Origin: an uncultured Verrucomicrobiae bacterium
GTDB taxonomy: Bacteria; Verrucomicrobiota; Verrucomicrobiia; Chthoniobacterales; JAFAMB01
Length of the DNA stretch: 64,000 bases
Direction: 5' to 3'
Assembly: GCA_963813025.1 (NCBI GenBank)
Contig: CAWEXO010000003.1
Span: 22,607 to 86,606 of the forward strand
The translations under genes were made by a program, and so were the position numbers. Positions 10,454 through 64,000 of this stretch are shown in pieces (the first letter of the stretch is position 1; the number at the start of each line of letters is the position of its first letter). The notes below the pieces were generated by a model, which saw only the letters and a program-made list of their open reading frames with translations, made no database searches and was not told where the DNA came from.

Positions 10454-11861
10454 GAGATATTGTCAAAAGTTGTGTATTGGGAACGGGCGCATCCTTTGAA
10501 ATGATCGATTAAGCGGCCTGTTGGGTTTGTTCTTCGCCATCGACGAACCGGACACCAGTAACTACCTTTGGGATCAGTTCGAAGCCCTGAAGCCGGCGCC
10601 AATGCTTTTGGGCTTCCAGACCGAGTTTAAAGACCATTGTCAGTGTCGCGATTCGTGAACCGCAACCCTTTGTTCGGTGAGTTCGTAATCGGACGGTAGC
10701 AAAGGTGGATTCGATGGGGTTGGTGGTCCGTAAATGCGGCCAATGTTGGGCTGGGAAGTCGTAAAAGGTAAACAGGACTTCTTTATCTTTGTCCAAGCAT
10801 TCGCAGGCTTTTGGGAACTTGATTTGGTAACTGGAGATGAACTGATCGTAGGCCGCCAGAGCTGCTTTGCGGGTCGGCGCCAGGTACATTTCATGGATGA
10901 GTTGCTTAGCTTTACCTTGCACACTCTTGGGCATTTTATCCAGGATGTTGGCTGTCTTATGCACCCAACAACGTTGCTGGGCGATCGGGCCATATTCTTC
11001 CTGCAGAGCGATCCAGAAGCCGAGCGAACCGTCACCGATGGCCAACTTCGGCGCGGCGGACAGGCCTAGGCGTTTGAGCTGCCCAAGCAGTTCACGCCAG
11101 GATTGGGTGCTTTCGCGATAACCGTCGACAACAGCTAAGAGTTCTTTGGTGCCATCCTCGGTGGCTCCGATCAAGACCAGCACGCAGGTTCGCTCTTCGT
11201 CGAGTCGGACGTTGAAATAGACGCCGTCGGCCCACCAATAAACGTAACGCTTCTGCCTCAAGTCACGCTGAGTCCATGCCTTGTAATCGGCTTCCCAACT
11301 GCTCTTGAGTCTGACGATGTTGGTGGCTGAAAGCCCACTGGCTCCTTCGCCCAAAATCGCTGTCAACGCTTCGCTGAAATCTCCGGTTGAGATCCCTTTG
11401 AGGTAAAGGGCTGGAATCAAAGCATCGACGCTGGGAGCCCGACGCATATACTTGGGCAGAATCGCGCTGGAAAATCGACCTTGGTCGCGATGCCGGATCC
11501 GTGGCTGACGAACCCGGATCGGACCCACTCCACTGACCACCTCCCGCTCCGGCAGATGTCCATTGCGTACCACCAGCCGCTGCCCATTCTCATCCCGCTG
11601 ATCTTTGTGGAATTGGATATAGTCGATCACCTCATTCTCGATTGCCGCCTGTAACAGCTTCCTGGCCCCTTCCTGCAGTAACTGTTCCAGGAAGGGCTTC
11701 TCTTCATCTTTTGCTCGCTCATCAAGCGAGACCACTTTATTCTCTGGCATTGGTGCATCCTTTCTTTTTGGCGTCCTCGAGTGAGGCTGCCGTGTTTCTT
11801 TTTCTCACTGAAAGGATGCGCCTTTCTTTATCTCCTCATCCACAAAATTCGGTTATAGCTC
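10454..11861 (-). mobile_element. IS256-family element, apparently intact
   Basis: Imperfect TIRs GAGATATTGTCAAAAGTTGTG and (reverse complement) GAGCTATAACCGAATTTTGTG. 9-bp direct repeat CTGATCAGA at 10442-10450 and 11862-11870, with 3 extra nt on the left side. Confidence 0.92.
10509..11750 (-). CDS. IS256-family (Mutator-like) DDE transposase
   Basis: 413 aa with WADGVY, IGDGSLGF, QRCWVHK and RTTNPIES motifs. Confidence 0.95.
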   Translation of the reverse strand: MPENKVVSLDERAKDEEKPFLEQLLQEGARKLLQAAIENEVIDYIQFHKDQRDENGQRLVVRNGHLPEREVVSGVGPIRVRQPRIRHRDQGRFSSAILPKYMRRAPSVDALIPALYLKGISTGDFSEALTAILGEGASGLSATNIVRLKSSWEADYKAWTQRDLRQKRYVYWWADGVYFNVRLDEERTCVLVLIGATEDGTKELLAVVDGYRESTQSWRELLGQLKRLGLSAAPKLAIGDGSLGFWIALQEEYGPIAQQRCWVHKTANILDKMPKSVQGKAKQLIHEMYLAPTRKAALAAYDQFISSYQIKFPKACECLDKDKEVLFTFYDFPAQHWPHLRTTNPIESTFATVRLRTHRTKGCGSRIATLTMVFKLGLEAQKHWRRLQGFELIPKVVTGVRFVDGEEQTQQAA

Positions 11862-59263: not shown

Positions 59264-59309
59264 GCGACCCTAACGGGATTCGAACCCGTGTTACCGCCGT
59301 GAAAGGGCG
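59264..59309 (-). other. 3' half of tRNA-Glu(TTC), probable att site of an integrative element
   Basis: Reverse complement CGCCCTTTCACGGCGGTAACACGGGTTCGAATCCCGTTAGGGTCGC gives anticodon arm, T arm and 3' acceptor strand; no D arm or 5' strand. Confidence 0.9.
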
Positions 59310-59606
59310 CAGCATGTTATTTATAACATATTGTTAATAAGCAACTTATGAAAGTCATTGAAAGATGTAGCGCATTTTGTAGCTCAAGAAGAAGAGATCT
59401 CAGTGTGAGTGGTCACGTCCAGCACCCCGGCAATCCACGACGAACCGCTCGCAGCGTGCACGGTGGGAGACTCAGGTTGAGGCCTCACCGTGAGGCTGTA
59501 GCAGCGGTCTAGGGCGCAAATGGGTGAGGGCGTCGATTTCAGTGAAATCGTAGACTAACCCCGCTTTTTTCCGCGAAATCGTAGACCGTTTGCACTCTCC
59601 AAAGGG

Positions 59607-60098: not shown

Positions 60099-60203
60099 AT
60101 GTATTCGTTAAAGAGCGCATTTGAGAAGGTCCTGTGGAATAGCCGCTTCGTTGTTCTGTTTGCAGTGATCACTAGCGTTCTGGCTGGGGTGGTTTTGTTC
60201 TGC
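60099..60203 (+). pseudogene. YqhA/UPF0114-like membrane protein N-terminal fragment
   Basis: MYSLKSAFEKVLWNSRFVVLFAVITSVL, cut by IS256-derived sequence. Confidence 0.55.
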
Positions 60204-60399
60204 GTCGATGGCGAAGAACAAACCCAACAGGCAGCCTAACCATCATTTAATTAACGCGATCGTTTTCGAAGGATGCGCCAGTAACCCGATACACAACTGA
60301 TACCAGTCTCAAAGTTGTTCACGTCGGCGGAAAGAACGCCGCTGACGAGAGCGTCATAACCGCCGCCGATGTGAATAACTTTGCCGCAGCCAAGGGGAC

Positions 60400-60600
60400 G
60401 ATTGTGAATGCCGCCGTTTCAAAACACAATCCGATGGGCTCAGGCAACTTTGGGCCAGCACGGTCTTACACAACCCGCCCTGAGAGGGCTTTCAAAAGAG
60501 CACCGACTGGCTGGAAGGCGCGGCGTCGAGAAGTCTGAGAGAACACCATCCCACGAGGATTCCAGTATCAGTTCGACTAGTGACGCGCGAGCGCTGGGCA
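60400..60600 (+). ncRNA. Predicted IS110 bridge RNA with target- and donor-binding loops
   Basis: Guides TACACAAC (60467-60474) and TCAAAAG (60492-60498) match the target; AGAGAACA (60538-60545) and GTATCAG (60565-60571) match the donor junction. Each pair flanks a hairpin and is closed by a stem. RNA ends are approximate. Confidence 0.85.
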
Positions 60601-60626
60601 CAATCAACCGTAAGAAAGGCAAAGAC

Positions 60627-61892
60627 ATGAAAAACTGGAATGAATTCACCCATTTCGCCGACATCGACTGGGCCAAGAACAAGCACGAGGTCGTCATTCT
60701 GGATCAATCCGGAAAAATCGTCGCTCGGTCTACGCTCACCCATGACGCGGCCGGCTGGCAGAACTGGAATCAATCGATTGTTAGCTACCGCGGGAATCTG
60801 GCCGTTTGCGTAGAAACGAATCAAGGTGCCGTGATCGAACGACTGCTTCAAAGTGATTGCCGCGTTTATCCGGTTCATCCACCCCGAGCCAAGCAATACC
60901 GCCAACGCAAGATCTCCAGTGGAAACAAGACCGATTTTCTTGACGCGTGGGCCTTGGCGGATGCGTTGCGCATGGACGGCTATAGCTGGCGGGCGCTGGG
61001 ACCGAGCGATCCACTGATCAATGAACTGCGTCTGCTGTGCCGCGATGAGGAGAGCTTCATCGAACAGAGGACGGCTTTGGTTAACCAACTCCAGCAAGCC
61101 CTCTACGAGTATTATCAAACCGCGCTGGATGCTTTCGAGGAATGGACCCTTCCCAGCGCTTGGGCGTTCGTGGAGCGTTTTCCCACCCCCGAGCTTCTGA
61201 TCGCTGCCGGCAAGCGCATGTGGCAGAAATTTCTCCACACTCATCGACTCGCTCATCCAAAGACCTTCGCCAAGCGATTGGACGTCTTTGCCAAAGCCGA
61301 CCGGTTCTTGGTTCGTAGCGAGATCAGCCGAGCCAAAAGTCGACAGGTATTGACTCTTATTCGGCTGCTGCGGGCCTTGGAAAGCCAGCTCGATGCTTAT
61401 CGTGATGAGATCGAGCGCTTGTTCGCCCAACATTCCGACTGCGATCTTTATCGCTCGTTGCCAGGAGTGGGCAAGAAACTCGGCCCACGCCTGCTTGGAG
61501 AAATTGGTTCGGACCGCTCAATGTTTTCCAGCTCACAAGCCTTGCAATGCGTGGCAGGAACGGCCCCCGTGAGCTACCAATCCGGCCAGATCCACAAGGT
61601 TTATCTTCGCCGTCACTGCAACAAGTTTCTGCGCCATACCGTTCACCTGTGGGCTGACCTAAGTCGCGCTCGCTCGCCCTGGGCCCAAATTTATTACCAG
61701 CAACAACGTAGTCGCGGCAGAAGCCATGCCTGTGCCATCCGCGCCTTGGGCCAACGTTGGCTGAAAATCCTTTGGAAAATGTGGGTCTCAAACACGTCTT
61801 ACAATCCTGATTTCCACACTAAGAACCAACTCGAACATGGTTCTTGGGTCCTCAAACTTCTTACCCAGAGCCCCAACTCATTAGGTCAATAA
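60627..61892 (+). CDS. IS110-family DEDD recombinase (421 aa)
   Basis: ADIDWA, CVETN, KTDFLDA (DEDD), SLPGVG, APVSYQSG catalytic Ser region; AAGAAAGG RBS before ATG 60627. Confidence 0.95.
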   Translation: MKNWNEFTHFADIDWAKNKHEVVILDQSGKIVARSTLTHDAAGWQNWNQSIVSYRGNLAVCVETNQGAVIERLLQSDCRVYPVHPPRAKQYRQRKISSGNKTDFLDAWALADALRMDGYSWRALGPSDPLINELRLLCRDEESFIEQRTALVNQLQQALYEYYQTALDAFEEWTLPSAWAFVERFPTPELLIAAGKRMWQKFLHTHRLAHPKTFAKRLDVFAKADRFLVRSEISRAKSRQVLTLIRLLRALESQLDAYRDEIERLFAQHSDCDLYRSLPGVGKKLGPRLLGEIGSDRSMFSSSQALQCVAGTAPVSYQSGQIHKVYLRRHCNKFLRHTVHLWADLSRARSPWAQIYYQQQRSRGRSHACAIRALGQRWLKILWKMWVSNTSYNPDFHTKNQLEHGSWVLKLLTQSPNSLGQ

Positions 61893-62051
61893 CTTGATAA
61901 ACAAGCGCTTGAGAACACAGAGAACATCTTTTGACAATATCTCGTTCTGTGTAGAGCCTCAGCTCAGCGTCAAAGATTGTGGAGGGCCATTTGCCTCCCA
62001 GGAAGACTTCGGCGACAGTTTAAGGTGAAATAATCTCCCTTTCTAAAAACC

Positions 62052-63376: not shown

Positions 63377-63840
63377 CGGGTACTCAGTTAAAGATAAGGC
63401 TCTGTCCAATACGCCCGGTCAGGCGAACTCGTGAAAAAGCCCTCATACAATTTGGAGCACCACTATGTCCAGAATGAAGATTTTAAATGCCGTCGAACAG
63501 GAACAGTTTGAGTCCCCGCCGGTCTTCAATAGCGTCCAGCGGAAACAGTATTTTGATTTCTCCTCAGAGCTGCTGACTCTCGCCCAGGACCTTCAAACAC
63601 CCACGAATCAAGTCTGCTTTCTGGTGAGTTGCGGCTACTTCAAGGCCGCCAAGCGCTTCTTCCCGAACCGCCGGTGCTCGCGACGAGACCTCGACTACGT
63701 CGCGCAACAGCTTGGGTTTCAGCCCGAGTCGATCGATGTGAACAGCTATTCTGCAACGACCCGCCTTCGACACGAAAGGCTCATCCTCGACTTCTATGGC
63801 TTTCGACCCTTTGATTCGACGGCCAAGTCGTTCGCTGCTC
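63377..63840 (+). pseudogene. Tn3-family transposase N-terminal fragment (DUF4158-like) with possible TIR
   Basis: From ATG 63465: MSRMKILNAVEQEQFESPPVFNSVQRKQYFDF...GYFKAAKRFF; upstream CGGGTACTCAGTTAAAG...TACG resembles a Tn3-type end. Confidence 0.7.
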
Positions 63841-64000
63841 ACCGACTCCGACACCGCAAAATCCAGCAGGCCTTTCAGGCCCATGATGCAGATGAAGAAG
63901 CTAGATATCGAAGGTCTGCAGCGCGCATTTGCCGGACAACAACGGATCAGCTCAGGAAAGGGAAATTACGTACGCTTACGATGTCACAGGGATGGCTTTT

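What the first reader, a model, noticed from the sequence alone, without database searches (positions are those of the whole stretch)
60400..60600. Fully readable two-loop bridge-RNA architecture
Seen in sequence, target loop: stem GCCAGCACGGT / ACCGACTGGC encloses guide TACACAAC, hairpin GCCCT-GAG-AGGGC and guide TCAAAAG. Donor loop: stem GCGTC..AGTC / GACT..GACGC encloses AGAGAACA (as in the right end CAGAGAACATCT), hairpin ATCC-CACGA-GGAT and GTATCAG (reverse complement of core plus left end, CTGATAC). All four guides occur in the order expected from IS621. Both right guides match for 7 nt including the core. Inference: a natural orthologue for programmable recombination with a 421-aa recombinase.
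Basis: partly seen in the sequence, partly recalled or inferred. Interest (0 to 1): 0.85.

Follow-up and report, generated by a model that had tools for sequence, protein, structure and literature searches.

The report
IS110 bridge RNA targeting IS256 ends
This is a real RNA-guided jumping gene of a known family (IS110) whose guide RNA aims it at the end of another jumping gene, and its relatives show an apparently undescribed looseness in how far the left guide sits from the cut site.

Summary
Confirmed. 60299-61929 is an IS110-group element (421-aa DEDD/Ser recombinase, CT cores at 60297-8 and 61928-9). Its left end holds a bridge RNA with a 5' stem-loop, a target loop and a donor loop. Across 35 orthologue guide clusters the helices covary, guides follow their targets (right 4.5/5 vs 1.6 shuffled; left 5.6/7 vs 2.6), and handshake bases have the post-exchange pattern (32/33; 26/33). 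The target is the right terminal repeat of a multicopy IS256; close relatives sit at the same site, and a paralogue in this genome hits another spot of that IS256. Bridge RNAs are known in tens of thousands, so the element itself is ordinary. One clade feature departs from IS621: the right guide is register-fixed, but the left target guide starts 7, 8 or 9 bp from the core (14/18/3 of 35), and the left donor guide starts 9 bp away and misses the core. Offset 1 was confirmed by empty sites for four elements; one empty-site check disagreed. This copy carries a private G12D beside catalytic D14. No transcript or circle was seen.

The parts
60203..60296 (+). 3' remnant of an IS256-family element (last codons of the transposase and first part of its right terminal repeat), the host of the insertion
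   Evidence: blastn to many genome copies; intact copy at 10454-11861 encodes NF033543 IS256 transposase
60290..60296 (+). left target (T1-T7)
   Evidence: identical to guide 60467-60473; 16 perfect empty sites in the genome
60297..60298 (+). left CT core
   Evidence: empty-site reconstruction
60299..60303 (+). right donor (first bases of the element)
   Evidence: complement of guide 60565-60571; 27 of 27 donor/guide combinations match 7/7
60312..60381 (+). 5' stem-loop of the bridge RNA, 19 bp
   Evidence: fold; 34 of 35 orthologues fold a long stem here
60454..60511 (+). target-binding loop: invariant A 60460, stem 60461-4/60502-5, left guide 60467-60475, hairpin 60477-60489, right guide 60492-60498, handshake AG 60499-60500
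60523..60586 (+). donor-binding loop: outer stem 60523-7/60582-6, invariant A 60531, stem 60532-5/60575-8, left guide 60538-60546, hairpin 60548-60560, right guide 60565-60571, handshake TT 60572-60573
60627..61892 (+). IS110 recombinase, 421 aa; D14, E63, D103, D106, S319; helical insertion about 164-230; private G12D (base 60661)
   Evidence: PF01548+PF02371; NF033542 183 bits over cut-off 140; invariant columns; model and Foldseek
61909..61914 (+). -35-like hexamer of the predicted circle-junction promoter
   Evidence: 34 of 35 orthologues have 4/6 or better at 16-18 nt; -10 TAnnnT in 28 of 35, not in this copy
61919..61927 (+). left donor, 9 bp (D-1..D7)
   Evidence: 8 of 9 match guide 60538-60546
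61928..61929 (+). right CT core
61930..61943 (+). right target (61930-61934) and rest of the IS256 terminal repeat
   Evidence: contigs of runs X1 and X2 match to 61943 and then diverge

Best explanation
An IS110-group element of the long-recombinase type. Inferred from IS621: the element copies or cuts itself out as a circle, the junction forms a promoter, and the left end is transcribed as a bridge RNA of roughly 280 nt that the recombinase binds. Shown here by covariation: the target loop reads 7 bp left of the CT core on the bottom strand and core plus 5 bp on the top strand; the donor loop reads the element's own joined ends; handshake bases pair with the incoming strand, which favours insertion. 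The programmed target is the right terminal repeat of an abundant IS256, a renewable site. In this clade the right guides and core fix the top-strand cut, whereas the 9-nt left guides start at a fixed place in the RNA but bind DNA 7-9 bp (target) or 9 bp (donor) from the core. This copy is the 7-bp, IS621-like case on the target side and the 9-bp case on the donor side, and it may be decayed.
For: Domains and catalytic residues; fold like IS621/ISCro4. Five helices: 92.7% of 825 cells paired, 17 of 25 pairs with two-sided changes, 0 of 500 shuffles as high, slid controls 23-44%; RNAalifold finds the same stems unaided. Guide-target match in 35 clusters beats all 10,000 shuffles. Handshake: target-loop base 1 with D7 32/33 (shuffled 18.4), donor-loop base 1 with T7 26/33 (9.8), pre-exchange pairing with D7 0/33. 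Same IS256 site in L051, L052 and in contigs of X1, X2, X7. Left offsets 14/18/3 of 35 against null means 0.5/1.0/0.4; right guide at offset 0 in 28 of 32, 0 at plus or minus 1. Offset 1 matches real empty sites: 9, 3, 5, 1 orthologous site identical over 122 nt.
Against: No RNA cover of the bridge RNA and no circle joint in the 4 runs laid (contigs only, weak). G12D and a disturbed outer stem at 60512-14 are private to this copy. The -10 box lacks its last T. Second handshake base of the donor loop does not covary with T6 (4/33) and rather matches D6 (27/33). For L003-L005, 3 of 3 empty sites hold 2 more bases than the filled sites imply, so offsets read from filled sites can mislead. Offset 2 rests on 3 clusters plus L002, whose right flank is cut by a contig end. 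Relatedness inflates all shuffle tests.
Confidence: 0.9

Rival explanations
1. Bridge RNA is real, but the left-guide offsets are only tolerated one- or two-base DNA bulges or off-target events of a complex with plain IS621 geometry.
For: The same guide occurs at offset 0 (L071, L075) and 1 (L061); L006 can be read as one extra target base. Offsets are scattered on the tree, 15 changes among 63 rows. Half-match and off-target insertion are documented for IS621.
Against: Offset 1 is the commonest class (18 of 35) and there all nine guide positions match in register (13-18 of 18 each), so those guides were selected for that spacing; every parsed donor is read at offset 2, with compensatory changes at D0 (4 of 4) and D5.
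Confidence: 0.3
2. Only the short target-loop RNA (seekRNA) is the working guide; the donor loop is not needed or acts separately.
For: ISEc21 moves with a 58-74-nt target-loop RNA; target-loop-only RNA is 90% of CazIS110-1 transcripts.
Against: The donor loop is as well conserved as the target loop (helices 96-99% paired), its right guide follows donor changes in 27 of 27, and its handshake base tracks the target.
Confidence: 0.12
3. This copy is a dead relic: correct anatomy, no activity.
For: Single copy in the genome with 16 perfect empty targets left; G12D in strand 1 two residues before D14; host IS256 is a 110-nt remnant.
Against: ORF intact, all five catalytic residues present, guides match; genome is 80% complete; an assembly error cannot be excluded. 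This rival concerns the copy, not the family.
Confidence: 0.4
4. The matches are chance or leftovers of duplicated ends.
For: The guides are only 7-9 nt; the two-loop segment alone is not unusually stable.
Confidence: 0.01

Closest known systems
IS621 and ISCro4/IS622 bridge recombinases (PMC11208160, PMC11208158, 10.1101/2025.05.14.653916)
   Same: RNA in the left end with 5' stem-loop and two loops; CT core; first guide base 7 nt after a conserved A; 9-nt left target guide, 7-nt right guide, handshake pair after it, 9-nt right donor segment; DEDD plus Ser; Foldseek top hits 8wt9 and 9t56.
   Different: 17-18% identity; 421 vs about 326 aa with a helical insertion; 328-nt left end; left donor guide starts 9 bp from the core and omits it (IS621: D1-D8); left target guide slides 0-2 nt in the clade; the conserved syn-G positions of IS621 are C/T here.
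Long IS110 subgroup, 395-455 aa (IS110, IS117; PMC11187229 section 6)
   Same: Length, upstream non-coding region, large variable region between the coiled-coil helices; 31-36% identity to plasmid IS110/IS117-type proteins.
   Different: No solved structure of this subgroup among PDB hits; role of the variable region stated as unknown in that paper.
ISEc21 (targets IS3 elements) and IS4321/IS5075 (target Tn21 terminal repeats)
   Same: IS110/IS1111 elements that use another mobile element as target (IS4321 seen only as a reference title).
   Different: Target here is an IS256 terminal repeat; two different IS110s in one genome aim at two places of the same IS256. Not found in one search.
CazIS110-1 (10.1101/2025.10.25.684509)
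   Same: Two-loop bridge RNA; top-strand insertion reported over 1,300-fold above bottom-strand, which would allow a loose left guide.
   Different: No variable register reported in the parts read; relationship to this clade not tested.

Membership tests
IS110 family, IS110 group | RuvC-like DEDD domain PF01548 plus Tnp domain PF02371 with catalytic Ser | tested here: met
   D14, E63, D103, D106, S319 invariant in 42 sequences
IS110 family, IS110 group | CT core at both ends, no target duplication beyond it, no long terminal repeats | tested here: met
   empty sites in the genome restore one CT
IS110 family, IS110 group | long non-coding end upstream of the gene | tested here: met
   left end 328 nt, right end 35 nt
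bridge RNA | conserved 5' stem-loop and two internal-loop modules | tested here: met
bridge RNA | target guides covary with both target arms on opposite strands | tested here: met
bridge RNA | donor guides covary with both donor arms | tested here: met
   few variants, all but one concordant; donors were found by consensus-like patterns, so divergent donors are under-sampled
bridge RNA | handshake bases pair after strand exchange | tested here: met
   first base of both loops, second base of the target loop; second base of the donor loop not met
IS621-type geometry | 14-bp target and donor, left guides include the core | tested here: not met
   donor 16 bp, left donor guide omits the core; targets 14-16 bp in the clade; this copy's target is 14 bp
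bridge RNA | junction promoter in the circle | tested here: inconclusive
   consensus-like in most orthologues, weaker -10 here
bridge RNA | RNA is expressed, binds the recombinase and directs recombination | not testable with these tools
   one RNA run laid, contigs only, no cover of the left end

The most novel reading that the evidence does not exclude
Long-type IS110 recombinases place the cut with the right guide and core alone; the left guides are elastic anchors that bind 7-9 bp away, so target and donor arms may be unequal (14 vs 16 bp in this element). A symmetric Holliday-junction exchange would then give unequal overlaps, so these elements would insert by top-strand transfer finished by replication, and could retarget by a slip of register. 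The helical insertion of the long recombinases may supply the reach.
Probability: 0.4. Interest if true: 0.65.

Novelty: new variant of a known kind. Interest (0 to 1): 0.42.

Why it matters
The element gives a clean, fully readable guide code for the long IS110 subgroup, for which no structure was found, with natural 7-nt right guides and longer donor recognition. The sliding left guide matters for guide design and off-target prediction, and makes a current dispute directly testable: two-strand Holliday-junction exchange (PMC11208158) against top-strand insertion (10.1101/2025.10.25.684509). Without that feature it is one more bridge RNA among many thousands.

Tried and rejected
Rfam has no model for it. 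Single-sequence structure prediction was useless (pLDDT 41); the alignment model was used. The 494-aa ORF from 60408 was rejected: relatives lack one base at 60512, so the extension is not kept. Empty-site searches for L023 and L010 found nothing. A search of 43 family genomes for the L003 target found nothing. RNA run X19 covers only pieces of the ORF and a bit of right flank, from relatives; no joint was listed; absence in contigs proves nothing. Discontiguous pairing of the right donor guide as in IS621 was looked at by eye and not supported (contiguous 7/7 fits). The tree is the quick tree; the careful search did not finish. Earlier scan notes: three look-ups returned nothing. A hairpin-like inverted repeat around the empty target was considered as an attC- or REP-type site and dropped once the site proved to be an IS256 end.

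Full report
Observation. None of 200,000 shuffles of the 328-nt left end held all four 7-mers. The whole left end folds better than 100 of 100 shuffles, but the two-loop segment alone does not (40 of 200 as good), so the case rests on covariation, not energy.

The element. The ORF 60627-61892 (421 aa) has PF01548 and PF02371 and passes NCBIfam NF033542. D14, E63, D103, D106 and S319 are invariant in 42 aligned proteins. A model from that alignment (pLDDT 86) matches IS621 and ISCro4 best (E 7e-13, 17-18% identity) and has extra helices at about 164-230, where PMC11187229 places the variable region of long IS110 proteins. Removing 60299-61929 restores a site present 18 times in the genome with at most one mismatch, 16 of them perfect. 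It lies in the right terminal repeat of an IS256-family element: an intact copy is at 10454-11861. The host copy here is only a 3' remnant of about 110 nt. L051 (95% protein identity) and L052 have IS256 as left flank; contigs of soil runs X1 and X2 carry the right junction to the IS256 end and then differ, and X7 carries the left junction. A paralogue (57% identity) in this genome has nearly the same donor loop and another target loop; two of its three copies sit near the 5' end of the same IS256 family.

Data set. I fetched 20, 30 and 80 loci and added 3 cuts of the own genome. Of 133, 125 rows with at least 40% identity were parsed. Junctions were found from the conserved element ends, not from the guides. 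72 were complete; dropped were 27 without a target loop, 14 without left and 9 without right junction, 2 with another loop length and 1 mis-parsed. They fall in 35 guide clusters, one of them this element. Named records are mostly Verrucomicrobiota.

Covariation. On 33 orthologues the five helices pair in 92.7% of 825 cells, with two-sided changes in 17 of 25 pairs; no shuffle of 500 reached this and slid partners give 23-44%. The outer target-loop pairs are weaker (83% for that helix) because two registers are mixed in the alignment. RNAalifold finds the same stems. Right target guides match 4.54 of 5 (shuffled 1.59, maximum 2.43), left guides 5.63 of 7 in the better of two registers (2.64, maximum 3.49). 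Right donor guides match 7 of 7 in 27 of 27 distinct combinations, with concordant changes in L008, L097 and C13d (L009, L049, L088 left out, L023 and L025 unparsed). Handshake bases follow the rule of PMC11208158: target-loop base 1 with D7 32 of 33, base 2 with D6 25 of 33, donor-loop base 1 with T7 26 of 33; donor-loop base 2 with T6 only 4 of 33. In this copy three of four handshake bases pair after exchange and one before. Relatedness makes all these tests look stronger than they are.

Departure from IS621. The target loop has IS621's layout (first guide base 7 nt after the conserved A). The right guide is fixed: 28 of 32 clusters match at offset 0, none at plus or minus 1, two at plus 2. 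The first seven bases of the left guide match the flank 0, 1 or 2 nt away from the core in 14, 18 and 3 of 35 clusters (40, 27, 3 and 2 unclear of 72 loci; null means 0.5, 1.0, 0.4); with a strict rule 11, 15 and 3 clusters remain. In offset-1 clusters all nine positions match in register, up to the core C. The label changes 15 times on a quick tree of 63 of the 72 rows, and one guide occurs at both offsets. Real empty sites confirm offset 1 without added bases for the paralogue (9 sites, none of the shorter form), L001 (3 of 3), L028/L044 (5 of 5) and L006 (one orthologous site). Two searches found no empty site. One check went against the simple model: for L003-L005, 3 of 3 empty sites carry a second CT; reading frames of that IS3 suggest the longer form is the broken one, a footprint or resistant allele (my inference), but a 2-base loss at insertion is not excluded, and then that cluster is offset 2. 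On the donor side the left guide is at offset 2 in all 27 combinations (0.96-1.0 for seven positions, then 0.63, 0.19, 0.78), with guide and donor changing together at D0 in 4 of 4.

Mechanism. Shown: anatomy, guide code, target, handshake pattern. Inferred from IS621: circle, junction promoter (consensus-like in 34 and 28 of 35), RNA binding, catalysis. In IS621 the top strand is cut after the core and the bottom strand between 9* and 10*. If the left guide set the bottom cut here, this element would join a 4-nt to a 6-nt overlap. None of 70 left junctions carries the donor's D6-D7 bases (partly conditioned by my seed filter). That fits top-strand transfer as reported for CazIS110-1, but bulge tolerance in an otherwise standard complex is a serious rival.

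State of this copy. G12D is private: Gly in 41 of 41 other proteins and G at 60661 in 3 of 3 DNA runs. The outer stem at 60512-14 also differs from relatives, which pair perfectly. L051, X2 and X7 have a perfect 9-nt left guide. No transcript of the left end and no circle joint were seen.

Literature. Seen: PMC11208158 (parts 1-2 of 9, passages, section 12); PMC11208160 (passages, supplement search with one file unreadable and two cut); PMC11187229 (passages, section 6); 10.1101/2025.10.25.684509 (parts 1-2 of 5); 10.64898/2026.08.31.748434 (abstract, term search); 10.1101/2025.05.14.653916, PMC13626964, 10.64898/2026.08.14.744561, 10.64898/2026.03.19.712850 (passages); 10.64898/2026.10.21.760802 (passages, three sections). 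Longer guides are known (up to 17 bp a site, 32,190 RNAs scored), that work aligned guides within a band of 2, and one preprint notes donor matches that shift within a loop. A left guide that slides against a fixed core was not found in searches or in the term look-ups; Durrant et al. kept only gap-free guides with CT core. IS256 ends as IS110 target were not found in one search. Figures, preprint supplements and subscription papers were not visible and may hold either point.

Verdict. As an element it is a new member of a known family; the loose left register of its clade makes it a variant worth a test. Interest 0.42.

Noticed in passing
window 10454-11861 (-): Intact IS256-family element, 413-aa transposase, identical copies on three other contigs; most full copies have 8-9-bp target duplications.
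   Followed up: partly
G000 C13 about 452.3-453.9k, 352.9-353.9k, 18.5-20.1k (L042): Paralogous IS110 in three copies: one frameshifted, one truncated by another insertion; L042 sits at a site that does not match its guide and has a right end like another IS110 of the genome, perhaps a chimera or off-target event.
   Followed up: partly
G043 (L002-L005, L139, L140): All three empty copies of an IS3-like element carry a doubled CT at the site where three other copies hold the IS110; the doubled form breaks the IS3 reading frame. One such copy took a new insertion about 50 nt away at an offset-2 site. Possible excision footprint.
   Followed up: partly
L068, L130 right ends: The right core is followed directly by the element's own left end: tandem dimer or circle junction.
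   Followed up: no
window 61909-61938 (+): In the inserted state the element's -35 hexamer and a hexamer of the IS256 repeat give an outward promoter-like match (9 of 12); weak.
   Followed up: no
window 59265-59335 (-): tRNA-like fragment, Rfam 22.3 bits under the cut-off of 29, not called by ARAGORN; looks like the duplicated tRNA end of an integrated element.
   Followed up: no
window 63465-64000 (+): DUF4158 ORF running off the window; this domain is recalled as the N-terminus of Tn3-family transposases.
   Followed up: no
window 60382-60453: [quoted passage not shown]
   Followed up: no
G000, at least 11 places: A second, more distant multicopy IS110 (32% identity) is abundant in the genome.
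   Followed up: no
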